DNA of 64,000 nucleotides from assembly GCA_963705915.1 (NCBI GenBank), contig OY970126.1, positions 515,552 through 579,551 on the forward strand, written 5' to 3'. Positions 10,254 to 31,025 of the stretch are shown here, piece after piece; within the stretch, counting starts at the first letter, position 1, and each line of letters opens with the position of its first letter. This DNA comes from an uncultured bacterium. GTDB taxonomy: Bacteria; Patescibacteriota; Minisyncoccia; UBA6257; 2-01-FULL-56-20. A program made the position numbers and the translations under genes. The notes beneath the pieces are model-generated. The model was given only the letters and a program-made list of their open reading frames with translations, made no database searches and was not told the origin of the DNA.

Positions 10254-10679
10254 TTATTCCGTAACCTCGATTCCCATATTCTTCGCAGTGCCGCGGATGA
10301 TCCGCTCGGCTGCGTCGAGGTCGGTCGTGTTGAGATCGGGAAGTTTCCGCTCGGCAATCGCGCGCACGTCGGCCTTCGTCACTTTGCCGACTTTCGCGGT
10401 GAGCGGATTCGCTGCGCCTTTCTCGATGCCAGCGGCTTTCTTGAGAAGCGCTGAAGCGGGCGGCGTTTTTAACGTGAACGAAAAACTGCGGTCTTCGTAG
10501 ATCGTGATCTCAGCAGGGACGATATCGCCACGCATATCTTTGGTTGCATCGTTGAACTGCTTGCAAAAATCCTGGATGTTAATACCTTGCGGGCCAAGCA
10601 CGGTGCCGACCGGCGGTGCAGGATTCGCAGCCCCTGCGGGGAGTTGCAACTTTAATACGGTTTTAATCTTCTTCGCCAT
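10254..10679 (-). CDS. rplK: 50S ribosomal protein L11
   Basis: [43 protein letters not shown] is a near-canonical L11 N-terminus. Confidence 0.95.
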
Positions 10680-10735
10680 AGTAGGAATATGATAACCGAA
10701 GGAGTGGGTTAAATCAAGCGCCCAGGCCGAGGATC

Positions 10736-11233
10736 TTAAAACGGAATTTCTTCAGGCTTTATCTCGTTTTCGTCGTCAAGACTGATGATGGGCACCTCGT
10801 CTTCTTTTGCGTCATTGCTAACAGGCTTTATATCATCCCCTGACGGCACAGCGCCCGAAGCGCCACCCGACGCGGCACCGCGAAAACCTCCGCCTTGTCC
10901 GCCGCCTGGCCGCGGACCAAGCTGTAAGCGTTCCGCAACGACTTCTGTGGTTTTCCGTTGTCCCCCATTTTTATCCGTCCAACTGCGCGTCTGCAATCGT
11001 CCTTCGATTAAAACCATCGCGCCCTTCGTGAGATATTGCCCGGCGATCTCCGCCTGGCGGCCCCAGAGCACAACGTTATGAAATTCGGTTTCTTCTTGTT
11101 TCTGGTTGTTTTTATCCGTCCACACCCGATTGGTCGCGACGCCGATCGTCGTGACCGCCGAACCGCCCGGCGTTGTCCGCACCTGCGGATCTGCCGTCAC
11201 CCGTCCCACCAAAAGCACCTTGTTTAAATCCAT
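10736..11233 (-). CDS. ssb: Single-stranded DNA-binding protein
   Basis: OB-fold N-terminus [34 protein letters not shown], a Gly-rich linker, and an acidic C-terminal tail ending EEIPF. Confidence 0.9.
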
Positions 11234-11337
11234 GGATTTTTTAGGTTTTGTTTAGGTTTATTGTATGACTTTGCATCTATAGTAGCAAATAGCACATTAA
11301 AAGAATCTAAAAAAACAATTAAAAATAAATAAAAATG

Positions 11338-11434
11338 CTAGGGCTTCCTGAGGGGCTCTCGGAGCCGCGAAGGCGGCGAGAGGCGAGGCGCGCGTCCAGT
11401 AGGACGCGACGCCGTACCCGAAGGAGGTCCTAGC
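11338..11434. repeat. Hairpin-flanked structured element, copy A (closing IR ctagggcttcc/ggaggtcctag with AT-rich extended arms; internal two-hairpin core)
   Basis: Perfect terminal inverted repeat. Core has CGGAG, then a hairpin with GAAG loop (gccgc-gaag-gcggc), then GAG, then a second hairpin (ggcg-cgcgtcc-agta-ggacgcg-a-cgcc) with a bulged A. Same architecture as copies B-D. Confidence 0.6.
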
Positions 11435-11444
11435 GTTTTTATTT

Positions 11445-11891
11445 TTATTGCAGAATCTCTTCTATTTTCTTCTCCAAGGCTTCGTTCGAAAGCGGACGCG
11501 GAGCTTGCGGCTTTGCGGCGGGAGCTTCAGCTCCCGGCGTTGCAGAGCGCATTGGTCGACGCGGTCGGCGCATGGCACCCATGTTCGGCATAATCTTTTC
11601 CGCGGCCGGCGGCGAGGCGATGATCATAGAACGCAAAACGTCGGTGCGTGAATTCAAATCTTTTTCCAAATTCTTGGCATTTTCCGGATAGGCGCGGAAG
11701 TTGCAGTACGCAAAGACCGCCTCCTTGTGCTTCTTGATTTCGTAGGCGAGCGCCAGGTTTCGGGCTTTCGGTTCAGCCGATATCTCTCCCTCATGTTGAC
11801 CGATGAGCGTTAAAACATTCGGTAAATCCGCCTCGGTTTTGATGAGAACGGCGATTTCGTATTCCTTTTTGTCGATATCCTCGCGATTCAT
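11445..11891 (-). CDS. rpsF: 30S ribosomal protein S6 with extended Ala/Pro-rich C-terminal tail
   Basis: YEIAVLIKTEADL...EGEISAEPKARNLAYEIKKHKEAVFAYCNFRAYPE matches the S6 fold. Sits upstream of ssb as in the conserved rpsF-ssb cluster. Confidence 0.85.
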   Translation of the reverse strand: MNREDIDKKEYEIAVLIKTEADLPNVLTLIGQHEGEISAEPKARNLALAYEIKKHKEAVFAYCNFRAYPENAKNLEKDLNSRTDVLRSMIIASPPAAEKIMPNMGAMRRPRRPMRSATPGAEAPAAKPQAPRPLSNEALEKKIEEILQ

Positions 11892-12117: not shown

Positions 12118-15100
12118 CTATTTCTCAGATGCCCCACCGCTCGGTGCCGCCGCAGCAGCCACTTCCTCCTCTTCTATATCTTCTTCGTGAAGGATGTGAA
12201 CGCCTTCAATATCCTGTTTACCGGCCGGGATCAGGCGGCCGATGATGACGTTTTCCTTCAAGCCGCGGAGTTTGTCCACCTTGGCTTCGATGGCTGCTTT
12301 CACGAGGACACGAGATGTGTCTTGGAATGAAGCCGCGGAAAGGAATGATTCAGCAGAAAGTGCAATGCGGGTGATGCCAAGCAATACCTCTTCTGATTTG
12401 GCGAGTTTCGCGCCCTGTTTCTTGAGCTCCTTATTCACTTCGAGGAACTTGGACTTCTCAACAATCTCGCCCATCACGAAGTCAGGTGCATCGCCGCCTT
12501 CCGTAATCTTCACGCGCGAGAACATCTGCTTCACGATCATTTCGATATGCTTGTTGTTGATCGAAGCGCCTTCGGAGAGATAGATTTTCTGGACTTCATT
12601 CACAATGTAGCGAGCGACTTCACGCATGCCCTTGTGTTCATACAACTCGTGGATGTCGAGGTTGCCTTCGGTGAGGAGGTCGCCCTTCTGAACCTTGTCG
12701 CCCTGATGGGCAAAGAACACCGTGCCGCGCGGGACGCTCACTTCCTGAGCTTTGGCCTTCTTGTTTTCCGCGATAAAGCGGATCGTCTTCAAATTGCCCT
12801 TTTCTTCGATCTTATCCACCGTCCCGTCGAATGGTGCGAGGATAGCGCGGCCCTTCGGTGAACGGGTTTCGAAAATTTCTTCGACCCGCGGAAGGCCGTG
12901 CGTGATGTCGGCACCGGCGACACCGCCCGAGTGGAAGGTGCGCATGGTGAGTTGAGTGCCCGGTTCGCCGATGGACTGTGCGGCGAGAACGCCGACGGCC
13001 GTGCCAAAGGCAACCGGTTTGCTCACGCCGAGATCAAAGCCATAACAACGTGCGCAAATGCCATAAAGCGTTTTGCACGTGATGGGTGACCGCACGATGA
13101 CTTCATCAATCTTGGTTGCTTCGATCGCTTCGGCCATCTCCTTGGTGATGGTTTCATTCGCACGGACAAGAATCTTGTTGCCGACTTTGATGTCGTGAAG
13201 CGCGGTGCGGGAATAGAGTTTCGATGAAAAACTCTGATTGAATTCTTTGCCGTCGCTGCGGAGGATGTCGATGCCTTCCTTGGTGCGGCAATCTTCCTCG
13301 CGGATCGTGAGATCCTGCGACACGTCAACCAAACGGCGCGTGAGATAACCAGCCTGCGCGGTCTTCAAAGCGGTGTCGGTCGTGCCTTTGCGGGCGCCGT
13401 GCGTCGAGATGAAGTATTCGAGAACCGACAAACCCTCCTTTAGGGACGACTTCACGGGAAGTTCGATCGTCTCGCCTTTCGGGTTTTGCACGAGTCCTTT
13501 CATACCCATCATCTGGATCGGCTGCGACCATGAACCGCGGGAACCGGAATCAACGATCTGGTAAATAGAATTGTCGATCGGCAAAATGCCGGAGACAATC
13601 TTCGCGAGCTCATTCTTGGTGCGCTCCCAAACGCTGATGACGCGGCTGCGGCGTTCGGCTGCGGTGAGTAAGCCTTCCGCAAATTGTTCGTGGATGAGAT
13701 TCACTTCGGCGTCGGCCTTCTTCATCACTTCCACTTTTTCCGGCGGGATCACGAGATCTGCCATCGCCCAGGTGATACCGGAGGTCGTCGCCATGTCGAA
13801 ACCGAGGAACTTCACGCGGTCGATCACGTCGCGCGTGGCATCCATGCCGTGGTCATGGAAAATCTTACTGAGCAACTGGTTCAATTTCTTCTTTGTTATC
13901 ACGTCGTTCACGAACGGGATCGTATCGCCGAGGGCGCGATTGAAAACCAAGCGGCCGGCGGTCGTCTCTATACCCTTCACGATGATCGGTGTATGAAGCG
14001 TGATGGCGCCGAAATGATGCGCGAGGAGCGCCTCATCTAAGCCGGTCATATGCTTTACCGGACCCTGTCCTTCAATTCTGCGGGTGAGATAGTAGCAACC
14101 AAGGACAACGTCATTCCACGGACCCGGGATGAGATCACCGGTCGCAGGCTTGAGCAAGTTTTTGCCGGCGGACATGATTTCTTCCGCTTCTTTCTGTGCT
14201 GGTTCGGAGAGCGGCAAGTGAACGGCCATTTGGTCGCCGTCGAAGTCTGCGTTAAACGCTGCGCACACGAGCGGCGGCAATTTGATCGCCAAGCCTTCAA
14301 CGAGCTGCGGACGGAACGCCTGCACCGACAAGCGGTGCAACGTTGGAGCGCGGTTCAAAAGCACGCGCTTCCCCTGCATCACTTCTTCGAGAACGGCGAG
14401 CACTTCGGGCGTGTGTTCTTCCATGTAACGCGAGGCGCTGCGAATGTTATGGGCCAAGCCGCGCTTGATGATCTCGGAAACGACGAATGGGCGGAAAAGT
14501 TCCAAGGCCATGCGCTTCGGAATACCCATCTCGTCGAGCTTCAATTTTGGACCGACGACGATAACCGAACGGCCAGAGTAGTCCACACGCTTACCGAGCA
14601 AGTTCTGACGGAAGCGACCCTGTTTGCCTTTCAACATGTCGGCGAGCGAGCGAAGCGGACGGCGCTGAGCGCTAAGCTGCTGGGTGCCGAAACGGGCCGA
14701 GTTATCAATCAAGGCATCAACAGCTTCCTGCAGCATGCGCTTTTCGTTACGGACGATCACGTCCGGCGCTTTGATCTCGAGCAATTTCTTGAGGCGATTG
14801 TTGCGGTTGATCACGCGGCGATACAAATCGTTCAAGTCGGACGTGGCATAACGGCCGCCGTCGAGGGCCACCATCGGACGGAGATCCGGAGGCAGCACGG
14901 GGAGCGAGGTCATGATCATCCATTCCGGCCGAGAGCCATTGCGGATCATCGCTTTGAACATCTTGAGGCGACGAAGCAGCTTGCTCTGGGCGAGCGGATC
15001 TTTGGCGCCTTCGAGTTCGGTCTCAATCTTCTGGATTTCTTTCTTGAGATCCATCTTTTCGAGAATCGAACGGACGGCCTCTGCACCGGATGAAGCCTTG

Positions 15101-18100
15101 AAAATGTTGCCGAATTTGCGCGAGAGCGTGAAGTATTCGTTCTCTGAAAGAATCTGGCCGACATGCAAGTCTTCCAAATAATCCTTGGTGGTGTCGGCGG
15201 CTTCGAGAATCTCGCCTTTCACGGCTTTGTCTTTATTGCCGACGGTCTTTAATTTGCCCTTGAGTTCGCGATCCAACTCGGCGAGGGCTTCCTTGCGGTT
15301 GTCTTCTTTTATTTCCGTGATGATGTATGCCGAATAATAAATGACGCGCTCCAATTTCTGTGCCGACACATCGAGCGAGAGCGAAAGGCGCGACGGGATG
15401 CTCTTCAAAAACCAGATGTGGCTCGCGGGTGTCGCGAGGGCGATGTGGCCGATGCGTTCGCGGCGGACCGCTGCACGCGTCACTTCAACACCGCACTTGT
15501 CGCAGACAACGCCCTTATAGCGGATCCTGCGATATTTGCCGCAGTAGCATTCATAATCTTTCGTTGGGCCGAAAATGCGCTCGGAGAATAAGCCATCTTT
15601 TTCAGGCCGCTGCGTGCGGTAGTTGATCGTCTCGGGCTTCGTGACCTCGCCATGCGACCAGCGCGCAATGTCTTCCGGCGAGGCAACGGTGATACGCAAC
15701 GCCGAGAAGCTGTCTTTGCGATCGGTTTCTGATTCATAAAGCGGTTGGATGTTGAATCCGAGCGACTTCAATTCGTTCACCAACACATTGAACGAGGCCG
15801 GAACGTTCGGCTCTTTGATCTGTTCGCCGCGGATGATCGATTCGTATGCCGCAGCACGACCAATCACGTCATCGGATTTGATCGTGAGCATTTCCTGAAG
15901 CGTGTGTCGTGCGCCGTAGCCTTCGAGCGCCCAGACTTCCATCTCACCGAAGCGTTGGCCGCCGAACTGCGCTTTACCGCCAAGCGGCTGCTGAGTGATG
16001 AGCGAGTATGGACCGATCGAACGCATGTGCGCCTTGTCTTCCACAAGGTGGTTCAGCTTGAGCATATAGATCTGACCAACGGTCACGCGATTATCGAACG
16101 CAACGCCGGTGCGGCCGTCGAAGAGCTTCACTTTGCCGTCTTTCGGAAGGCCAGCTTTTTCGAGTTCCGTTTCGATTTCGGCTTGCGTGGCAGAATCGAG
16201 TCCCGGCGTGATGGCACGATAGCCGAGCTTCGAAGCAGCCCAACCAAGATGGGTTTCCAAAATTTGTCCGAGGTTCATACGGGAGATGACGCCGAGCGGA
16301 TTCAAAACGATGTCAACCGGCGTGCCGTCTTCGAGATACGGCATATCTTCCACGGCGCGCACTTGCGAGATGACCCCTTTGTTGCCGTGCCGTCCGGCGA
16401 GTTTGTCGCCCGCCTGCACTTTGCGGAGTTCTGCGATTTCAACCTGAATACGCCGGATGATGCCGGGTTCGAGTTTGTCGCCGCGTTCGCGATCGAACAC
16501 TTTTACGTTCACCACACGACCGATTTTACCGTGCGGAAGCGTGAGCGACGTATCTTTCACGTCGCGCGCTTTTTCACCGAAGATTGCGCGCAAAAGCCGC
16601 TCTTCTGAGGTGAGTTCCGATTCACCTTTCGGAGAAATTTTACCGACAAGAATGTCCCCCGCTTTCACTTCGGCGCCGATGCGGACGATGCCTTCTTCAT
16701 CAAGGTTCTTCAATTTATCTTCTGAAACGTTAGGGATGTCGTAGGTCGTCACTTCCGGACCAAGCTTCGTATCACGCACGTCGCAGGAATATTCATCAAT
16801 ATGGATAGAGGTGAAACGATCGTCGCGGACGACGCGCTCGGAAATGATGATGGCGTCCTCAAAGTTTGCACCTTCCCATGAGACGAAGCTCACCAGAAGA
16901 TTTTGGCCTAATGCGAGCACGCCGTTTTCAATGGAAGGTCCATCGGCGAGGATTTGCCCTTTCTTCACTTTGTCGCCGGACGTGACGAGCGGACGCTGGG
17001 AAATACAGGTGAACTGGTTTGAACGCTTGAATTTCTCAAGCGTGTAATTCTTGGTTGCTTTTGGATATCTCACTTTGAGATGGGCTCCATCAGCTTCGAG
17101 AATTTCGCCATTTTCTTCGGCGACGATCACGTAGCCGGAGTCGAGCGCCACTTTTTCCTCTTGACCCGTTGAAACATAAGGCGCATCAGGCTTTACGGAC
17201 ACGACTGCCTGGCGTTGCATGTTGGAACCCATGAGCGCCCGGTTCGCATCGTCGTGCTGCAAGAACGGAATGAGCGACGTGGCAACGGAAACGAATTCAT
17301 GCGGCGCGACGTCGATATAATCGACTTCGTCCGGCGTCACCGTTCCCGGCTCACCTTTAATACGCGCTTCGAGCAACGGGCCAACGAGTTTGTCGTTTTC
17401 ATCCCGCTTGCTGCCGGCATGGGTAATCTTGTATTTTTCTTCTTCCGAAGCATCCATCCAAACAACGTCTTTCGTAATGACACTGTTCGTCACCTTCATG
17501 TACGGCGCCTCAAGGAAACCGAAATCGTTGATGCGGGTGTAGCTTGCGAGGTAGTTGATGAGACCGATATTCGAACCTTCCGGCGTCTGAATTGGACAGA
17601 TGCGACCATAGTGCGAGCGGTGCACGTCGCGCACTTCGAAACTCGCGCGCTCACGGGTGAGACCGCCCGGACCGAGCGCGGAAATGCGGCGCTTATGCTC
17701 AAGCTCCGCGAGCGGGTTCACCTGGTCCATAAATTGCGAGAGCTGTGAGCTTGCGAAAAATTCTTTGATGACGGCTGCGATCGGGCGGAAATTCACGAGC
17801 TGTGCAGGTTGAAGATTGTCTTTGTCTTCGGTCGACATGCGGTCTTGAATGATACGACGCAAGCGAGCGAGACCGATACGCAAACGGCCCTGGAGTAATT
17901 CGCCGACCGCCTTTAAGCGGCGATTGCCCAGGTGGTCGATGTCGTCCGGTTCAGCATCCGGGTCGTTATTTAAAGCGATGATTTCACGGACAATCCCAAC
18001 GATATCATCGGCATCAAGGAGCTTATAGGTCTTTTTTTGATTGAAGTCCAAACGCTGATTCATCTTGTAGCGGCCCACCTCCGAAAGGTCGTAGCGGTCG

Positions 18101-18876
18101 GGGCGCTCAAACATCGCACTGATGAGATTCTTCGCTGTTTCTGCGTTCGCCGGATCGCCCGGGCGCAAACGGCGATAGATTTCAACATATGATTCCGCAG
18201 CGTCCTTTGCGACGTCTTTCTTGAGCGTTGCATCGATGTATTTAATGAGTCCCCCGTCAACATCCTTGAATGCCGCGTGGATTTTTTCGGTCGTGAGGCC
18301 AAAGATACGGAGCAAATCGGTGACGGGCACCTTGCGGTGACGGTCGATCTTCACGCCGATTTCACCGTTGATGTCAGTTTCAAATTCGAGCCATGCGCCG
18401 CGGTTTGGAATAATTTTTGCGCCGAAAAGCTGACGGCCGCGATACGGGGTCGCCGTAAAATACACGCCCGCCGAACGTACAAGCTGGGAAACGACAACGC
18501 GCTCAACGCCGTTCACGATGAATGTGCCGCGTCCCGTCATGATCGGGAAATCACCGAAATAGACTTCTTGCTTTTGCTCCTTCCCCGTCCGCTTATTCAC
18601 CAAGCGGAGCGTGCAGCGCAACGGCGCTTCGTACGTCGCTTCTTTGTAGCGTGCCGTCGCTTCGTCATATTTCGGCTCATCAAATCGATAGTCCGAAAAA
18701 TATAATTCAAACTCCTTCCCGGTATGATCCCGGATCGGCGAGATTTCTTCGAGGAGCTCGTTTAATCCTTTTTTAAGAAACCATTCGTAGGATTTGAGTT
18801 GAGCTTCGTTCAAATTGAACGGAGCGATGAGCGACTTTGATTTACCGAACTGCTTCGTTGAGGTAAATTTTGCCAT
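12118..18876 (-). CDS. rpoBC: DNA-directed RNA polymerase beta-beta' fusion protein (rpoB-rpoC in one 2252-aa reading frame)
   Basis: The N-terminal ~1049 aa carries beta signatures, for example [18 protein letters not shown] and ...[12 protein letters not shown] at its C-terminus. A short linker TDRKDS joins it in frame to the beta' N-terminus [77 protein letters not shown]. Beta' motifs NADFDGD and the trigger-loop region follow. The junction is at about 15730. Confidence 0.9.
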
Positions 18877-19200
18877 GCGTAGTGATGAAAAATATATAAA
18901 ATATTTATTTTCTGGCGCAGTCCGTTTGATCGCAGTGACCAGCCGCGATCCGGGACGTTTGCCCTATAATGTGCCGGAACCCACGTTTTAACCCACGATG
19001 TATGCCCATTTCCAACGCGCGTTTTCGTCCTCACACGATAACGCGCAAAAAACGGCAAACCCCTCATTTCCTGTGAGGGATTCCGTTTATGAAGTTACGT
19101 TACTAAACATTATAGCCGTGCCAGAATCGTTGTCAAGGGCCCCCTGCATGGCTCACAACGTTACTACAATCGAGCCGTTGAAATACTTTCCAAGGATTCC

Positions 19201-22155: not shown

Positions 22156-22183
22156 TATAGCAACAAAAAAACGGCCCTTTGAT

Positions 22184-22298
22184 GTCGGCACATCCTACGT
22201 TCCCCATCGTCGAAACAATGAGTATCATCGGATTGGAGCGCTTTCACTTCTCTGTTCGGAATGGGAAGAGGTGGGACACGCCCGAATAAAGCACCGAC
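22184..22298 (-). rRNA. rrf: 5S ribosomal RNA
   Basis: Reverse complement reads ...GTGTCCCACCTCTTCCCATTCCGAACAGAGAAGTGAAAGCGC...GATGGGGAACGTAGG..., matching the 5S loop B/C consensus. Terminal helix is gtcggtgc/gtgccgac. Confidence 0.8.
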
Positions 22299-22333
22299 AT
22301 CAAAAGGTCGTTTTTTGTTGTAGAGAAAACAGC

Positions 22334-22440
22334 ATTTGTGTTTGTGGTTTGGAGGGTGTCACGGAGGCACGAAGGTGCCGAGTGTCAGCGGTCGCGCCAG
22401 CAGGCGCGAACCGCGACCCTACAAATCACAAACACAAATG
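22334..22440. repeat. Hairpin-flanked structured element, copy C, in the 23S-5S internal transcribed spacer (14-bp closing IR catttgtgtttgtg/cacaaacacaaatg)
   Basis: Core cggag-[ggcac gaag gtgcc]-gag-tgtc-[gcggt cgcgcc agca ggcgcg a accgc]. Base pairs covary relative to copy B: cgcgcg/cgcgcg in B versus cgcgcc/ggcgcg here, and ggccgc/gcggcc versus ggcac/gtgcc. Confidence 0.65.
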
Positions 22441-22569
22441 CGTAAGTCAGCATTGGGATGGTTGGCGGGATTATTAGTATCACTTGGCTTAACGCATTGC
22501 TGCGCTTACACCTATGACCTATCAACGTCGTAGTCTTCGACGAAATCACGCACACCTAATCTTGGGGTG

Positions 22570-22602
<33 letters not shown>

Positions 22603-22691
22603 CTTCCATACATAGCTACTCGGCAATTCACCTGGTGGCAAAGCCGATAGACCAGAGGTATGTTCAGTCCAGTCCTCTCGTCGATTACTCA

Positions 22692-23463
22692 CATATTACT
22701 ATGTGCTCAGACTATATCTTCATCCTTCCGCAAAGCGGTGTCGGACGTCGGCATATTATAGCGATTCAAAAACCGCTATCCGGTCATTCGGTATAGAACC
22801 GAAGACACAAGTCGTTACGGGGTCAAACCAAAAATCGTTTTTAATTCTTCTTTGGATCTTTTCTTTCTTGTAGCATAATTTTCGGATTGAACAATCAATA
22901 TATTATCTATTAATTGTTCTTTGACTGGCGACAAGTCGCAGCCAGCAGACAAAAGTAGTCGAGCTGAACTTATAATAGCTTGTGCCTGTTTCTTTTTAAA
23001 TTTAAGAAATGGCAACAAACTTTCTAAAATGTTCATCACCCGTTTGTGTCCGTTGATTCGCAGCTCCGTCATCCCATCATTTCTCCGATAAATGTATCCT
23101 ATGCCCAAGACTGTCCTGATCCAATGGAGCGGTTGGTCATGCCGGGAATCCTGATAAAAACAGATGGTCAGCATGACCCTTCGTGTTTTTAATCGAGATT
23201 CTGAACGCCGCTTGAGTTGTATCATCAAGCTACCATCTCCGTCCAAGAATCCAGCGATATACGCTAGATCGATTTGAGATTGACTTCCCACGGTATTGCC
23301 CTGTTCTTGTACCATATCTCAATGGTAAGGAATGAGGACCGTAATTCAAGCTGCCTTTAATAAATTTTTAATAAAAATATTAAGGACGCCGAAGTAAGAA
23401 TAGGGTTTCACCGTTATTAGCCGAGTTGGCAATCTGGATTACTCCAGAAAGTAGCAATTTCTT
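22692..23463 (-). mobile_element. Intron (presumed group I) in 23S rRNA at the sarcin-ricin loop region, carrying a LAGLIDADG homing endonuclease ORF
   Basis: Exon sequences GGTCTTAGT | ACGAGAGGACTGG rejoin to the universally conserved AGUACGAGAGGACC. The 772-nt insert ends in G and begins after U. About 270 nt of non-ORF sequence remains for a ribozyme core. Confidence 0.6.
22815..23315 (-). CDS. LAGLIDADG-family homing endonuclease (intron-encoded)
   Basis: LAYIAGFLDGDGSLMIQLK motif. 166 aa, single-motif type. Lies entirely within the 23S insertion. Confidence 0.85.
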   Translation of the reverse strand: MVQEQGNTVGSQSQIDLAYIAGFLDGDGSLMIQLKRRSESRLKTRRVMLTICFYQDSRHDQPLHWIRTVLGIGYIYRRNDGMTELRINGHKRVMNILESLLPFLKFKKKQAQAIISSARLLLSAGCDLSPVKEQLIDNILIVQSENYATRKKRSKEELKTIFGLTP

Positions 23464-23503
23464 ACTAAGACCAACTCCCCTCAAGTGTTAAACGCCTGCA
23501 GCA

Positions 23504-23544
<41 letters not shown>

Positions 23545-24428
23545 ACGTGCCACTTTAATTGGCGAACAGCCAAACGCTTGGGAGCTTCTCCACCCCCGCG
23601 CTGTGGCGAGCCGACATCGAGGTGCCGAGCATTGTCGTCGCTAGGGACGCTCGGACAATACTAGCCTGTTATCCCCGGAGTAGCTTTTATCCGGTGTCTC
23701 CGGCCTTTCTATCAAGAATTTAATGAATCGTAAGAAACAATAAATATAGCCGTCGGGTCACTAACTTCTGCTTTCGCACCTGCTCGACTTGTAGGTCTCG
23801 CAGTCAAGCCAGCTTTTGCGTTTGCACGTCCTGCCCGATTTCCATCCGGGCTAAGCTGACCTTAATAAACTCCTCCGTTACTCTTTTGGAGGAAAACGCC
23901 CCATTTAAACTGCCTACCAAGCACTGTCTCAGTTGGGTTTCCTCTAGGGTCCCCAACCGGTTAGACGTTAAAGTTCTAAAAATGGCTGTTTCATTGTCGG
24001 ATCCACACAACCCGAGAGCTGTGCTTCAAATCCTCACCACTACGCTACGTAGTAGAACTCTAAAATCAATACCAAGCTGCAGTAAAGCTTCCGGGGTCTT
24101 TTCGTCCCGCTGCAGGTATCCCGCGTCTTCACGGGAATCGCATTTTCACCGAGCTTGCCTCTGAGACAGTTCTCCGGTCGTTACGCCTTTCGTGCGCTTC
24201 GGAACTTACCCGAAAAGGAATTGCGCTACCTTAGAACGATTATAGTTATCGCTGACATTGACGAGGGCTTGAGTCAGTGAGCCTCCGTATTGCTACGGCA
24301 CCCCCAACCTTGACCTTCTCGCATCGGTCAGGCGTCACCCCCTATACATCCTCTTGCGAGTTAGCAGGGAGCTGTGTTTTTGGTAAACAGTCGCCAGAGA
24401 GACTTTTGTTGCAGCCCAACACCACTTT

Positions 24429-24737
24429 GATTTCAAGATTAAAGAAAGCTGTTTTTGATCCTTTTATAAAGCTCTTGCTTAGCTCTACCATGACTTTTTA
24501 ATCGTTGTTCTCTGCGAAGAGCGTCCTCAAAACTTCGATACGCTTCAATGTAAACAAATTTCCATTCGCCTACACTTCGTTTAGTAGCAGTTTGAAGACC
24601 ACGATTATGCTCAGATAATCTACGTCGAAGATTTTTTGTATGTCCGATGTAGAACTCTTTTGTCACAGTATTTTGGATGAAGTAAACAGCAAACATTTGC
24701 TCATTTTAATCCTATGCGGATTAAAAATATCTTAAAA
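24429..24737 (-). mobile_element. Compact 309-nt insertion in a 23S variable helix carrying a GIY-YIG ORF (IVS-like or degenerate intron)
   Basis: Flanked by an about 15-bp complementary pair, gcccagcaccactttg and caaagtggtgttgggc. The non-ORF part is only about 50 nt, which is too short for a group I core. Confidence 0.5.
24439..24696 (-). CDS. GIY-YIG nuclease-domain protein (85 aa)
   Basis: VYFIQNTVTKEFYIGHTKNLRRRLSEHN matches the GIY-YIG core (GIY...YIG, R, E, N). Confidence 0.7.
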   Translation of the reverse strand: MFAVYFIQNTVTKEFYIGHTKNLRRRLSEHNRGLQTATKRSVGEWKFVYIEAYRSFEDALRREQRLKSHGRAKQELYKRIKNSFL

Positions 24738-25987
24738 GCAAAGTGGTGCTGGGCAGGCCTTATCGCTAACTTACGGCCGCTTTTTTGCCTAGTTCCTTAG
24801 AGGCAAATCACTCGTTCCCCTTGGGCTACTCGCCCTATCCACCAGTGTCGGTTTACGGTACGGTTCCCATGTTTCATAACAAACACGCTTTTCTCGAAGG
24901 GCTCTTCACGATCATTAGCCAGGTAAATTCCTGACCTTCCGCCTCCGGCCGCTTGAACTTGCCGGTAGCGATATCAAACCAATAAGACACGATCGCTTAT
25001 TTCCCTTGCACGTGCAGGATAAAAACATAGGAGGGCTGGAATATTAACCAGCATTCCATCGACTGCCCCTTTCGGGATTGCCTTAGGACCGCCTAACCCG
25101 TGGTTGATTGCCAGTGCCACGGAAACCTTAGATTTTCGGGGTTCCAATTTCTCATTGGGATTGTGGTTACTCGTTCCGACATTTTCTCTTCCGGACGCTC
25201 CAGTCGCCCTCGCGGGTCGACCTTCACTGCAACCGGAATGCTCTCCTACCAGACGTGTCTCCCGAAGGAAACACGAATTCGTATCTTCGGTGCCGTGCTT
25301 GAGCCCCGATACATTTTCGGCGCCACCACCCGTCGAATAGTGAGTTGTTACACACTCTTTAAAGGATGGCTACCTCTAAGCCAACCTCCTATCTGTCTAT
25401 GGGTGATAACTACCTTTAACACTGAGCACGGACTTGGGGACCTTAGATGACGATCTGGGCTCTTCCCCTCGCGACCATGGAGCTTAGCCCCCACAGTCTG
25501 ACTAGTGAGTTTTTGACTCTCGGTATTCGGAGTTTGATTGATCTGTCGGCCTTTCGGCCTTTACAGATCATCCAGTGCTCTACCCCCAAGAGGAACACTC
25601 ACCGCTAGTCCTAAAACTATTTCGGAGAGAACCAGCTATTACGTAATTCGATTAGCTTTTCACTCCTTACCTCAGCTCATCCGAAGATTTTGAACAATCA
25701 ACCGGTTCGGGCCTCCCTCTCGATTTCTCGAGAGTTCACCCTGGCCAAGGTAAGCTCATCACGCTTCGGGTCTAGACTGTGCCGCCTATAGTTCGCCCTA
25801 TTAAGACTCGCTTTCGCTGCGCCTTCGCGCTATTCGCGCTTAGACAAGCGACACAATATAAGTCGTCGGATCATTCTTCAATAGGCACATTGTCGTTCTC
25901 GTCCGCGGATTGCTCCGCAGCCGTTCGAACTTCAATTCCTTGTAGACAAATGGTTTCAGGTTCTATTTCAACGGCCTCACCGGCCTG

Positions 25988-26024
<37 letters not shown>

Positions 26025-26998
26025 ATCTAGAAAAGTATTTAGCCTTACCAGATAGTACTGGCAAATTCCTTCGAAACTGTTTTACTTCGAAGTACTCAAG
26101 TAGGTAAACTAAGGAGACCAAAAGTTTTCGTCTACGGGGCTATCACCCGCTATGGCACTGGCTTTCCAGCCAGCTTCGACTAACTCATGATTTTTTGACT
26201 CCTCCACCAACCTCATAAATAACACAAGGTACATTGCTATACCCTATGTTATTTAGGAGGAGAGCGTTCATCACTTATAACTCCAAGGTTTGACCTTGCG
26301 ATCAGAACCTTAGTCTGGGCTCTTCCCTTTTCTCTCGCCGATACTCAGGGAATAAACTGTTTGTTCTTTGTTCCTCCGGCTACTGAAATGTTTTACTTCG
26401 CCGGGTACGCTCTTGGATTGCTCCAAGCCATTGAGGTTTACTCAACGAGGTTCCCCCATTCGGAAATTCCCGGATCACAGGTTGCTACGCACCTCCCCGA
26501 GACATATCGCTGCTACGCCGCGTCCTTCATCGCCTTTTCTAGTCTAGGCATCCACCATTCGCCCTTAATGCCAACCATCCCAATGCTGACTTAAATTTAT
26601 TTGCTCTGCCTGCCAAGAGAAATTGCGCGCGTGAAAAGTGCAAAACATCAAGCGCGTGCCTGGTCTCTCTATAATATAGAGCGGCTCCAGACATAAGATG
26701 GCGCAGAGCTACATATAATGACTCCGACTCTACAATTCGGAGTTCGTTCATGGACTATCGAACGAATTATGGAAAATTGCGTTCGACAGGATACCTAAGA
26801 AAAAAATCAGCCGCACATCGCGGCCGCTCTGCCATCATAAAATGGCGGGTTCAGCCGCTTGCTTTGAGAAGATTTTTATTCGTAAGCATCTGTCTTAGGG
26901 ATAAGTATACTCAGCTTGAAAAGGGTGTCAAGCATGATGGAAACAGATCAAAAGTTTCAAAAATAAAACCGCCTGGCGACATTGCTTGTAAAGCTTCG

Positions 26999-29186: not shown

Positions 29187-30357
29187 CTACCGCACGGTCG
29201 CACCGAATTCTTTGGCGGTCTCCTGTTCAATACTCTTGTGCAAGACGTCCACCTCGTCGTTCGTAAGCGTGCGATCACTTGAGCGATAGGTTATGCGATA
29301 GGCATAGCTTTTGTTCCCTGCACCAAACTTAGCATCGTTCTCATAGGAATCGATAAGCTCCACTTGTTCAACAAGATCTCCCGCGATATCGCGGACAAGA
29401 TCAAAATAATCGTTCGGGCTGAAGGTTTTCGGGACAATGAATGAGATGTCGCGCACCACGGGCGGATATTTGCTGACTTCCACAAACTTTTGCCCCATAT
29501 GAAGCTGGCGCTTCACGCGTTCATCGTCTGACCATAAGAGGCGAATGTCTGGCAACTCCATACTGATGATGGCAAGCCGTTCGAGGCCGAAACCAAACGC
29601 CCATGCGTTATATCCTTCGACGCCGAATTTTTTGAAAACGCTTTGCTTCGTCATGCCGCCGCCCAAAATTTCAACCCATTGGCCGTTCACTTTCACTTCC
29701 ACCTGAAGCGACGGATCGGTGTATGGGAACGTGTCATCCAAAAACCGATACTCGACATCGGCGCCGAACAATCCTTGTACAATCTCAATCAACGCATTCC
29801 GCAAATCATCGATCGTGAGCGGCATTGTGTCGGCTGGCGTCATGTACCATCCACCAAACTGATGAAAGATGTTCATGTGCTTGCGGTCAATCTCATCTTT
29901 ACGGTAGACCTTGCCGTAGCAGACAACGCCGAGCGGTTCTCGTCGCGCAAGACGTTCTTTTACCTCGGGGAGTTGCGTGTAGTAATACCACATGACCGTG
30001 TCATGCGTGCGAAGAATATTGTTATCATCTATATAATAGGTGTCCGACTTGCTCCGCGCGGGATGGTCGACCGGGAAATCGAAAAGATCAAAACTGATGT
30101 CTGCCGGGACAATTTCGGGAATAATGATGTCGTCGAAATTTTTGAGTGCCGAAACGCTTTTTGCCTTTTCGACGATTTCATGGAGCGGGCTCCCCGGCGT
30201 GCGCGAAAGGTCGGGCATCGCAAGATAGCGTTTGATCCGCTGCGCTTCAGCATCGGTGCGCGTATTAAGCAACGTCAAAATCTTTTTTTGCTCGTCCAAC
30301 GAGACGCGATATTCATGCGATTCCATAGAGAGTATTGTAGCGGTATCGATTGTCATT
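29187..30357 (-). CDS. pheS: Phenylalanine--tRNA ligase, monomeric mitochondrial-like type (alpha catalytic core fused to a C-terminal FDX anticodon-binding domain). The ORF track extends to 30512 but the likely start is MTIDTA at 30357.
   Basis: Class II core with FPYTDPS (PheS motif 2 region) and GFGLERLAI (motif 3). The C-terminal VVRDISFIVP...ELIDSYEND...KSYAYRITYRSSDRTLTNDEV resembles the FDX-ACB domain. An upstream extension would overlap the convergent pyrE. Confidence 0.8.
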
Positions 30358-30422
30358 TTCAAATTTTTGTGATATCCTCTGTGCGCAATGAACTTTGACA
30401 TCATGCAATAGAAGGAGGAACG

Positions 30423-31025
30423 ATGGACATGGATACTAAGCGAGTGCTTGAAATCCTTGAGTACATTGGTGCGCTCAAAGATGTTCACACCGAAACCCAT
30501 TCCAAAAGGCACGTACGACGCTATTTCGACAAGCGAGTGCTTTTCGCGGATACTTTCAACACCGGACGCATATCGACGGCGCTGGCGGATCTTTTTTTAA
30601 ACGATCCGGTCGATGTTGTATGCGGGCCACCGCAAGGCGGGATGATCCTCGCAGGACCTGTATCGGAACGCCTCAGGGAAAAATTTCGCAAGGAGATACC
30701 GGTCATCTCAATAGAAAAGAATGAAGACGGAACGCTCGTCGTATCGCAAGCTTCCCGCGAAGCCTTGACGGGCAAGACCGTTTTGATTGTCGAGGATACC
30801 GTGACGACCGGCGGAAGCGTACGAGAGGTCGTGCGCATTGCAAGAGCTTCCGGCGCAAAGAAAATCCTCGTCGGCGCCATACTCAATCGCGGCGACGTCC
30901 GAGCAAAGCAGCTCGACGCCGATCGCTTCAGATACCTTGCTTCCATGGTTCCAGAAGATTGGCTTCCTGAAAATTGTCCGCTTTGTAAAGCCGGCATTCC
31001 TCTTGAGCCGACACCCGGAAAATAG
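30423..31025 (+). CDS. pyrE: Phosphoribosyltransferase, orotate PRTase-like
   Basis: PRPP-binding motif VLIVEDTVTTGGS. About 200 aa, adjacent to an OMP decarboxylase gene. Confidence 0.65.
   Translation: MDMDTKRVLEILEYIGALKDVHTETHSKRHVRRYFDKRVLFADTFNTGRISTALADLFLNDPVDVVCGPPQGGMILAGPVSERLREKFRKEIPVISIEKNEDGTLVVSQASREALTGKTVLIVEDTVTTGGSVREVVRIARASGAKKILVGAILNRGDVRAKQLDADRFRYLASMVPEDWLPENCPLCKAGIPLEPTPGK

What the first reader, a model, noticed from the sequence alone, without database searches (positions are those of the whole stretch)
12118..18876. In-frame fusion of RNA polymerase beta and beta' subunits into one 2252-aa protein
The beta C-terminus (...[13 protein letters not shown]) runs through a 6-aa linker into the beta' N-terminus ([22 protein letters not shown]...). 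There is no stop or frameshift. Natural rpoB-rpoC fusions are rare; from established knowledge they are described in Helicobacter and Wolbachia. A fusion here would be of note for this lineage and for RNAP assembly. It could alternatively be an assembly error that removed a stop codon and a few bases of intergenic sequence.
Basis: partly seen in the sequence, partly recalled or inferred. Interest (0 to 1): 0.6.

Follow-up and report, generated by a model that had tools for sequence, protein, structure and literature searches.

The report
Fused RNA polymerase beta-beta' gene
The two largest RNA polymerase subunits really are encoded as a single 2252-residue protein here; this is an inherited trait of a whole group of tiny-genome Parcubacteria (candidate phyla radiation) bacteria and not an assembly error, and it is an independent example of a kind of fusion already known from Helicobacter and Wolbachia.

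Summary
Window 12118-18876 (- strand) is one uninterrupted 2252-codon ORF. It encodes a complete beta subunit (aa 1-~1050), a ~6-residue linker (TDRKDS) and a complete beta' subunit (aa ~1057-2252), with the catalytic and zinc motifs intact.

The assembly-error alternative is rejected. All 120 best database clusters (70-92% identical; NCBI, JGI, ENA and Logan assemblies; contigs up to 914 kb) are fused proteins of similar size. In 113 of 121 sequences the junction has the same length, and it carries a conserved R-[KR]-[DE]-x-F motif. DNA from five assemblies keeps the frame although synonymous sites are near saturation (linker pN/pS 0.26).

Named relatives are Liptonbacteria, Ryanbacteria and Paceibacterota. 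Other CPR lineages (Zambryskiibacteria, Nomurabacteria, Spechtbacteria, Saccharibacteria-labelled) keep a stop codon and a spacer.

The protein falls far below NCBI's cut-offs for the Helicobacter-type and Wolbachia-type fused families. It is closer to unfused CPR subunits than to any other fused protein, so the fusion arose independently.

A 2024 paper already notes in one sentence that beta and beta' are fused in Candidatus Adlerbacteria. I rate it a new member of a known kind, of modest interest.

The parts
12118..18876 (-). Fused rpoB-rpoC gene (rpoBC): one ORF of 2252 codons plus a stop codon
15727..18876 (-). Beta (RpoB) module, aa 1-1050. It has Rpb2 domains 1, 2, 3, 45, 6 and 7 and no large lineage-specific insertions.
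   Evidence: Pfam. NCBIfam NF001616 scores 1528 bits against a cut-off of 896, covering aa 7-1044.
15709..15726 (-). Linker TDRKDS (aa 1051-1056), which joins the last beta strand to the first beta' strand. R1054, K/R1055 and D/E1056 are conserved across the clade.
   Evidence: pN/pS 0.26; the AF2 model shows strand-loop-strand
12118..15708 (-). Beta' (RpoC) module, aa 1057-2252, plus the stop codon. Zn-binding CxC...CxxC starts at aa 1110, NADFDGD at aa 1542, and the second Cys cluster lies at aa 1863-1946. The C-terminal tail is acidic.
   Evidence: Pfam. TIGR02386 scores 1525 bits against a cut-off of 963.5, covering aa 1060-2219.
19109..19136 (-). Sigma-70-like promoter TTGACA-16-TATAAT (12 of 12 matches) upstream of rpoBC. 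It is conserved in the closest relatives.
   Evidence: function is inferred
19047..19094 (-). Terminator-like hairpin plus T-run in the rpoBC leader, about 15 nt downstream of the promoter and about 170 nt upstream of the ATG. It may be a leader attenuator.
   Evidence: the hairpin and T-run are present in all five loci compared, with changed stem sequences. Function is not established.

Best explanation
This is a genuine, vertically inherited rpoB-rpoC gene fusion of a clade of Parcubacteria/Paceibacteria (candidate phyla radiation) bacteria. An ancestral in-frame deletion removed the rpoB stop codon, the intergenic spacer and the first few codons of rpoC. The gene is translated as one ~250-kDa polypeptide in which a complete, minimal beta module and a complete, minimal beta' module are tethered by a ~6-residue loop. 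The loop connects the last beta strand to the first beta' strand, two elements that already lie side by side in the clamp of bacterial RNA polymerase. The polypeptide therefore folds into the ordinary catalytic core (alpha2-beta-beta'). What changes is how the enzyme is made, not what it does: the two subunits are produced in a fixed 1:1 ratio and their association becomes intramolecular. Shown here: the ORF, the domain content, the intact catalytic motifs, conservation of the fusion and the linker across the clade, purifying selection on the junction, and an origin separate from the Helicobacter and Wolbachia fusions. Inferred: the deletion mechanism, that the product stays uncleaved, the geometry of the linker, and any benefit for assembly or stoichiometry.
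For: - **ORF and domains.** There is a single ORF with no stop and no N. All beta and beta' Pfam domains are present in order. The protein passes the curated NCBIfam cut-offs for both rpoB and rpoC. The NADFDGD, Zn-finger and other conserved motifs are intact.
- **Conservation of the fusion.** All 120 best clusters at 90% non-redundancy are 1971-2322 aa and span the junction in one alignment. A second search seeded from the most distant member returns the same set plus 16 more clusters, again all fused.
- **Conservation of the linker.** The junction length is identical in 113 of 121 sequences. Among the 113 sequences of that length, R1054 is kept in 105, K/R1055 in 107, D/E1056 in 113 and F1057 in 113.
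- **DNA-level evidence.** Junction DNA from five independent assemblies keeps the frame. Synonymous difference is pS 0.84, and pN/pS is 0.26 in the linker against 0.14 and 0.19 in the flanks. One of these assemblies is a 914-kb contig and one is an NCBI MAG.
- **Synteny.** The order FtsW-YceG-rpoBC-S6-SSB is conserved.
- **Relatives without the fusion.** Other CPR lineages have a stop codon and a spacer at the homologous place (L002-L004, L008, L009, L019, L039).
- **Independent origin.** The nearest unfused subunits (beta 61%, beta' 51% identity) are closer than any other fused family (49% or less).
- **Structure prediction.** An AF2 model of aa 940-1400 places the linker as a loop between two strands, with pLDDT about 68.
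- **Established knowledge, from memory.** Artificially fused E. coli beta-beta' is functional (Severinov et al. 1997). H. pylori makes the fused polypeptide (Zakharova et al. 1998, 1999; the 1999 paper is cited in PMC1557499).
Against: There is no protein-level evidence, such as proteomics or a purified enzyme, that the product remains a single chain in these uncultured organisms. The AF2 fragment model is of only moderate quality (mean pLDDT 62), and I could not inspect its coordinates. No solved structure spans a natural beta-beta' junction among the PDB hits. The selective advantage of tethering is untested; from memory, H. pylori with the subunits split apart is viable. The exact protein of this window is not in the protein collection, so the case rests on relatives that are at most 92% identical.
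Confidence: 0.92

Rival explanations
1. Assembly or sequencing artefact: a small deletion or error in this contig removed the rpoB stop codon and the spacer, and the organism really has two genes.
For: Spurious read-through 'fusions' do occur in public data. Many short fragments in the representative library join beta to beta' through 30-115 residues of low-complexity Arg/Gly/Pro-rich sequence that look like translated spacers or frameshifts.
Against: The same junction, with the same length and a conserved motif, is present in all 120 nearest clusters, which come from four data sources and several assemblers. Five DNA loci differ by saturated synonymous change yet keep the frame. None of the 120 closest clusters listed is an unfused protein.
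Confidence: 0.01
2. The gene is fused, but the mature enzyme has separate subunits. Either the polyprotein is cleaved at the conserved linker, or beta' is also made on its own from an internal start.
For: The linker carries a conserved charged motif (x-[DEA]-R-[KR]-[DE]-x-F) that could in principle be a processing site. There is no protein-level data.
Against: No in-frame ATG occurs between the junction and aa 1275. The only nearby in-frame start-like codon after the junction (TTG at aa 1060) has no Shine-Dalgarno-like sequence before it and is CTC or CTG in relatives. The conserved D-x-F is also found at the N-terminus of unfused beta' in other CPR bacteria, so conservation there reflects beta' structure rather than a cleavage site. 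From memory, the Helicobacter precedent stays tethered.
Confidence: 0.06
3. The fusion was not formed in this lineage but acquired by horizontal transfer of an already fused rpoBC from another fused lineage, such as a Helicobacter-type, Wolbachia-type or other metagenomic family.
For: Fused genes exist in many distant lineages.
Against: Both halves are most similar to unfused CPR subunits (61% and 51% identity). They are 49% identical or less to every other fused family. The scores against the two curated fused families are less than half of their cut-offs. The linkers share no length or sequence.
Confidence: 0.01

Closest known systems
Helicobacter/Wolinella fused RpoBC (NCBIfam NF007172 / PRK09603; Zakharova et al. 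1999, cited in PMC1557499)
   Same: It has a single ORF encoding beta followed by beta' in the same order, joined at the beta C-terminus and the beta' N-terminus. It is a clade-wide 'rare genetic change'. A fused example, Helicobacter muridarum L068, was recovered in my genome scan.
   Different: The origin is independent. The score against NF007172 is 2198 bits against a cut-off of 5372. The Helicobacter protein is ~2890 aa with a junction about 21 residues longer (81 nt against 18 nt between the matched beta and beta' ends; sequence ...YGDKVDEFGLIKPLVVGEDEKDRPRDF...). This one is 2252 aa with ~6 linker residues and lacks the proteobacterial insertions.
Wolbachia/Rickettsiales fused RpoBC (NCBIfam NF011417 / PRK14844)
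   Same: It has the same fused architecture and occurs in a small-genome, host-dependent lineage (the P0138 cluster, with members of 2842 aa).
   Different: The score is 2104 bits against a cut-off of 4632. Identity is 45-49% in each half. The linker differs: 17 residues between the matched ends (sequence ...[22 protein letters not shown]...).
Fused beta-beta' of Candidatus Adlerbacteria, noted in Protein Sci 2024 (PMC11515920)
   Same: It is a Parcubacteria-group CPR lineage reported to have beta and beta' 'fused into one polypeptide chain'. This is most probably the same phenomenon and possibly the same clade.
   Different: The paper gives one sentence and no analysis. I could not retrieve the sequence, so I did not test whether it shares this linker or clade. 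None of the named hits is labelled Adlerbacteria.
Engineered E. coli beta-beta' fusion (Severinov et al. 1997; mentioned as 'functional synthetic rpoB-rpoC fusion' in bioRxiv 10.1101/2021.11.05.467461)
   Same: It shows that tethering the beta C-terminus to the beta' N-terminus is compatible with assembly and activity.
   Different: It is artificial and not under natural selection.
Mycoplasma wenyonii fused RpoBC (WP_014849752.1, 2648 aa)
   Same: It is another natural fusion in a reduced genome.
   Different: There are 59 residues between the matched beta and beta' ends. Identity is 38-49%. It is unrelated to this event.

Membership tests
Bacterial RNAP beta subunit (RpoB; NCBIfam NF001616, TIGR02013) | Whole-protein score above the curated cut-off, and Rpb2 domains 1, 2, 3, 45, 6 and 7 in order | tested here: met
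   NF001616 scores 1528 bits against 896, and TIGR02013 scores 1514 against 801. All six Pfam domains are present at aa 22-1044.
Bacterial RNAP beta' subunit (RpoC; TIGR02386) | Whole-protein score above the curated cut-off, Rpb1 domains 1-5, the catalytic NADFDGD motif and the N-terminal Zn-binding Cys motif | tested here: met
   TIGR02386 scores 1525 bits against 963.5. Pfam domains cover aa 1056-2146. NADFDGD is at aa 1542 and [20 protein letters not shown] at aa 1110.
Natural beta-beta' fusion (general kind) | Beta and beta' are encoded in one ORF with no stop or frameshift, and this is conserved among relatives | tested here: met
Natural beta-beta' fusion (general kind) | The product exists as a single polypeptide in the cell | not testable with these tools
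   This needs proteomics or biochemistry on an uncultured lineage.
Helicobacter-type fused beta/beta' (NF007172) | Equivalog score of at least 5372 bits | tested here: not met
   2198 bits, matched in 6 separate stretches
Wolbachia-type fused beta/beta' (NF011417) | Equivalog score of at least 4632 bits | tested here: not met
   2104 bits
Parcubacteria fused RpoBC clade (defined here: Liptonbacteria, Ryanbacteria and Paceibacterota-labelled MAGs) | A protein of ~2240-2320 aa with the junction ...[FL]-[ND]-I-x-P-x-Y-x-x-x-x-x-R-[KR]-[DE]-x-F-x-A-L... at a fixed length | tested here: met
   In 113 of 121 sequences the spacing is the same, and the window has the modal form.
Parcubacteria fused RpoBC clade (defined here) | Gene neighbourhood FtsW/RodA - YceG/MltG - rpoBC - S6 - SSB | tested here: met
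   Window. L084 and L085 match fully. L082 and L083 match upstream only. L081 matches downstream only.

The most novel reading that the evidence does not exclude
Beta-beta' tethering may be a recurrent, convergent solution in fast-evolving bacteria, several of which (named cases only) have reduced genomes. Cases include this order-level Parcubacteria clade, Wolbachia, hemoplasmas, Helicobacteraceae and roughly twenty further unnamed metagenomic families with unrelated linkers. It would be selected because it replaces a lost or weakened assembly aid (for example omega or chaperone-assisted beta' folding) or fixes subunit stoichiometry. In this clade it would be coupled to a dedicated promoter and leader attenuator in place of the ancestral rplKAJL-rpoBC operon control.
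Probability: 0.2. Interest if true: 0.5.

Novelty: new member of a known kind. Interest (0 to 1): 0.3.

Why it matters
- **Clade marker.** The fusion is a clean rare genomic change that marks a clade within the Parcubacteria. CPR phylogeny is hard, so it could serve as a synapomorphy, as the Helicobacter/Wolinella fusion has been used (PMC1557499).
- **Annotation and marker genes.** The automated names seen for these proteins are only 'subunit beta'', 'subunit beta' or 'hypothetical protein'. They fail both curated fused-family models. Marker-gene sets that expect separate rpoB and rpoC will meet one gene that matches both models.
- **A minimal natural single-chain core.** This is one of the shortest full-length natural beta-beta' fusions seen here (2252 aa with a ~6-aa linker; two unnamed library proteins of 2241 and 2283 aa are comparable). 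That makes it a possible template for a single-chain RNAP core in structural or synthetic-biology work.
- **Frequency of such fusions.** It adds to evidence that these fusions have arisen many times.
- **Limits.** None of this changes the understanding of transcription, and a CPR case has already been noted in print.

Tried and rejected
- **GTDB genome scan.** It returned mostly unrelated phyla; only L001 and L068 were fused.
- **Exact look-up of the window protein.** The protein is not on record, so the source sample remains unknown.
- **Cluster-member look-ups for taxonomy.** Most of the other fused families carry no names, so I could not say what most of them are.
- **PDB search.** No chain spans a natural junction among the best 60 hits, so there was no structural template for the linker.
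- **AF2 fragment model.** The model of aa 940-1400 is only moderate (mean pLDDT 62), and the first 90 residues are disordered out of context. I used it only for the strand-loop-strand statement and did not run fold searches on it.
- **Literature searches.** Searches combining Patescibacteria, CPR or Parcubacteria with rpoB/rpoC fusion terms found nothing. A broader search led to the single Adlerbacteria sentence. That paper's held supplements do not list the accession. PMC93870 (Zakharova 1999) is not held.
- **Hypotheses considered and rejected.** I rejected internal initiation of beta', read-through or recoding, and horizontal acquisition from another fused lineage; see the rival explanations.
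Full report
**1. The observation**

The window has one ORF on the minus strand, 12118..18876, of 2252 codons starting with ATG. Its translation has no internal stop, and the window contains no ambiguous bases.

- ...[13 protein letters not shown] is aa 1038-1050.
- TDRKDS is aa 1051-1056.
- [17 protein letters not shown] starts at aa 1057, so the junction lies at window 15706-15729.

Both other reading frames are closed around the junction. Pfam finds every beta domain in order (Rpb2_1, 2, 3, 45, 6, 7; aa 22-1044), followed directly by every beta' domain (Rpb1_1 to 5; aa 1056-2146).

NCBIfam's curated rpoB and rpoC models are both passed: NF001616 scores 1528 bits against a cut-off of 896, and TIGR02386 scores 1525 against 963.5. 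The catalytic NADFDGD (aa 1542), the N-terminal zinc-binding cysteines (from aa 1110), the second cysteine cluster (aa 1863-1946) and conserved beta motifs are intact. The only additions are the strand, and that the 'linker' is 6 to about 11 residues depending on where the subunit ends are drawn.

**2. It is not an assembly error**

A search of 5.8 billion non-redundant proteins returned 120 best clusters that are 70-92% identical over 87-100% of the query. All carry both sets of domains. All are 2240-2322 aa apart from four shorter entries of 1971-2038 aa, some labelled partial. They come from NCBI, JGI, ENA and Logan assemblies, on contigs up to 914 kb.

Every one of them spans the junction in a single alignment. 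The distance between the flanking motifs PASFNVL and WSHGE is identical in 113 of 121 sequences. Among the 113 sequences of that length, R1054 is kept in 105, K/R1055 in 107, D/E1056 in 113 and F1057 in 113. A second search seeded with the most distant member (P0120) returned essentially the same set plus 16 further clusters, all fused.

I fetched DNA for four relatives and used one locus from the genome scan. These include a 914-kb contig and an NCBI MAG. Together with the window, five of these sequences were compared at the junction. The frame and the linker length are kept although synonymous sites are close to saturation: pooled pS is 0.84 in the 13-codon junction, and pN/pS is 0.26 there against 0.14 and 0.19 in the flanking 40 codons. 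That pattern indicates long-term purifying selection on an expressed junction. It is not what a shared artefact would produce.

The gene order FtsW/RodA - YceG/MltG - rpoBC - S6 - SSB (- L11) is also conserved.

**3. Which organisms, and how far the fusion extends**

Where sources give names, the relatives are labelled Candidatus Paceibacterota, Liptonbacteria, Ryanbacteria, Minisyncoccia or Patescibacteria group. In NCBI taxonomy the Liptonbacteria fall under the Parcubacteria group of the Patescibacteria, the candidate phyla radiation.

The window fits such an organism. It has small beta and beta' modules, a 23S-5S pair with no 16S in the window, and a LAGLIDADG ORF beside the rRNA.

The fusion is not general in the CPR. 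In my genome scan, loci labelled Saccharibacteria (L002, L039), Patescibacteria (L003), Parcubacteria (L004), Zambryskiibacteriota (L008), Paceibacterota (L009) and Nomurabacteria (L019) all have a stop codon after rpoB and a spacer before rpoC.

The closest unfused subunits in the 1.84-billion-protein representative library are a Spechtbacteria beta (P0204, 61% identical over the full length) and an unnamed beta' (P0196, 51%). All fused clade members compared are at least 73% (beta) and 67% (beta') identical to the window. At 50% clustering the whole fused clade collapses into one representative (P0015). The simplest reading is a single fusion event in the ancestor of a sizeable but bounded Parcubacteria clade. 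I did not build a tree, so monophyly is inferred from this gap in identity.

**4. Relation to known fusions**

NCBI curates two fused 'beta/beta'' equivalogs:
- NF007172 (2890-position profile; I infer it is Helicobacter-type from the profile length and from memory): the window protein scores 2198 bits against a cut-off of 5372.
- NF011417 (2839-position profile; likewise inferred to be Wolbachia-type): the window protein scores 2104 bits against a cut-off of 4632.

It is therefore a member of neither family. It is 49% identical or less to every other fused protein I recovered. The junctions also differ in length and sequence. Between the matched beta and beta' ends, Helicobacter muridarum has about 21 more residues than this protein (81 nt against 18 nt), Wolbachia has 17 residues and Mycoplasma wenyonii has 59. 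The fusion therefore arose independently.

The representative search also showed that such fusions are commoner than the textbook pair. About two dozen full-length fused representatives were found, mutually only 28-46% identical. They include Mycoplasma wenyonii and MAGs labelled Deltaproteobacteria, Anaerolineaceae and Rickettsiales. Many short 'fused' fragments in that library do look like read-through artefacts, so these counts should be taken only from full-length proteins.

**5. How it most likely works**

*Shown:* there is one ORF with two complete modules, a short conserved linker and no nearby internal start. The first in-frame ATG after the junction is at aa 1275. The only start-like codon just after the junction is a TTG at aa 1060, which is CTC or CTG in relatives.

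*Inferred:* the gene is translated as one ~250-kDa chain. An AlphaFold2 model of aa 940-1400 is only moderate overall (mean pLDDT 62). It predicts a helix, then the last beta strand (aa 1041-1046), then a loop containing the linker (pLDDT about 68), then the first beta' strand (aa 1059-1064). This fits the established picture, recalled from memory of the Thermus and E. coli core structures, that the beta C-terminus and the beta' N-terminus lie next to each other in the clamp.

Comparison with unfused CPR relatives shows that the 'D-x-F' just before the first beta' strand is native beta' sequence. The event therefore looks like an in-frame deletion that removed the short beta tail, the stop codon, the spacer and about 5-15 N-terminal beta' codons.

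The functional consequences are obligatory 1:1 synthesis and intramolecular association of the two subunits. Catalysis should be unchanged.

Precedents, from memory except where cited:
- An engineered E. coli fusion is active (also mentioned in the bioRxiv paper).
- Helicobacter makes the fused chain (Zakharova et al. 1999, cited in PMC1557499).
- Split H. pylori is viable.

The advantage may therefore be modest.

**6. Regulation (side observation)**

rpoBC is not preceded by rplJ-rplL here. About 230 nt upstream of the ATG there is a perfect TTGACA-16-TATAAT (19136-19109). It is followed within about 15 nt by a hairpin plus T-run (19094-19047). Both elements are conserved in the three closest loci. 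A hairpin plus T-run is recognisable in all five loci with altered stems.

This could be a leader attenuator, comparable in role to the E. coli attenuator upstream of rpoB (described in the paper). It could also be a short RNA gene, or the yceG terminator. I did not resolve which.

**7. Novelty and verdict**

The sequences have been public for years under the names 'hypothetical protein', 'subunit beta' or 'subunit beta''. My literature searches found no analysis of a CPR fusion. [quoted passage not shown] Adlerbacteria, from memory, is a Parcubacteria-group lineage. I could not test whether it belongs to the same clade.

The finding is therefore real, but it is a new, independently derived member of a known kind, and it has been partly anticipated in print. 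It is useful as a phylogenetic marker and as an annotation caveat. It is of modest interest to RNA polymerase specialists, and I score it 0.3.

Noticed in passing
window 19047-19136 (- strand), leader of rpoBC: A perfect sigma-70-like promoter (TTGACA-16-TATAAT) is followed about 15 nt later by a strong terminator-like hairpin plus T-run. About 170 nt of variable leader then precede the rpoBC start codon. The promoter and the hairpin with T-run are conserved in relatives' loci, with changed stem sequences. It may be a leader attenuator for RNAP autoregulation, a short RNA gene, or the yceG terminator.
   Followed up: partly
window 29187-30512 (- strand): A 441-aa protein combines a PheS catalytic core with a C-terminal FDX-ACB anticodon-binding domain. 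Its best NCBIfam match is the mitochondrial-type single-chain PheRS (TIGR00469 pheS_mito, 237 bits against a cut-off of 258), ahead of bacterial pheS. No pheT was found among the ORFs I scanned. This suggests a monomeric, mitochondrial-like PheRS architecture in this CPR bacterium.
   Followed up: partly
window 22182-26578 (- strand): There is a 23S rRNA (23320-26578; 3259 nt against a 2925-position model, so about 330 nt of insertions) and a 5S rRNA (22182-22299), with no 16S in the window. A 166-aa LAGLIDADG homing-endonuclease ORF (22815-23315) lies in the 23S-5S spacer, immediately after the 23S 3' end.
   Followed up: no
protein library: P0123, P0136, P0145, P0148, P0151, P0152, P0155, P0157, P0169, P0175, P0183, P0215, P0227, P0235, P0248, P0257 and others: About two dozen full-length fused beta-beta' representative proteins (about 2000-2840 aa) are mutually only 28-46% identical and have unrelated linkers of 0-59 residues. 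Most are unnamed. Named ones include Mycoplasma wenyonii, Wolbachia/Rickettsiales, a Deltaproteobacteria-labelled MAG and an Anaerolineaceae-labelled MAG. Natural rpoB-rpoC fusion seems to have arisen many more times than the literature I found reports.
   Followed up: partly
window 15480-15737 (- strand): An 85-codon ATG ORF overlaps the junction in a different frame of the same strand. Its ATG lies inside the codons for L-Y-E of beta. It is most probably a chance ORF inside a long gene.
   Followed up: no
window 10254-11891 (- strand), downstream of rpoBC: The genes for ribosomal proteins S6, SSB and L11 follow rpoBC on the same strand. L11 normally lies upstream of rpoB in the rplKAJL-rpoBC cluster. 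This rearranged order recurs in relatives: L081 and L084 have all three, while L085 has S6 and SSB but no L11.
   Followed up: partly
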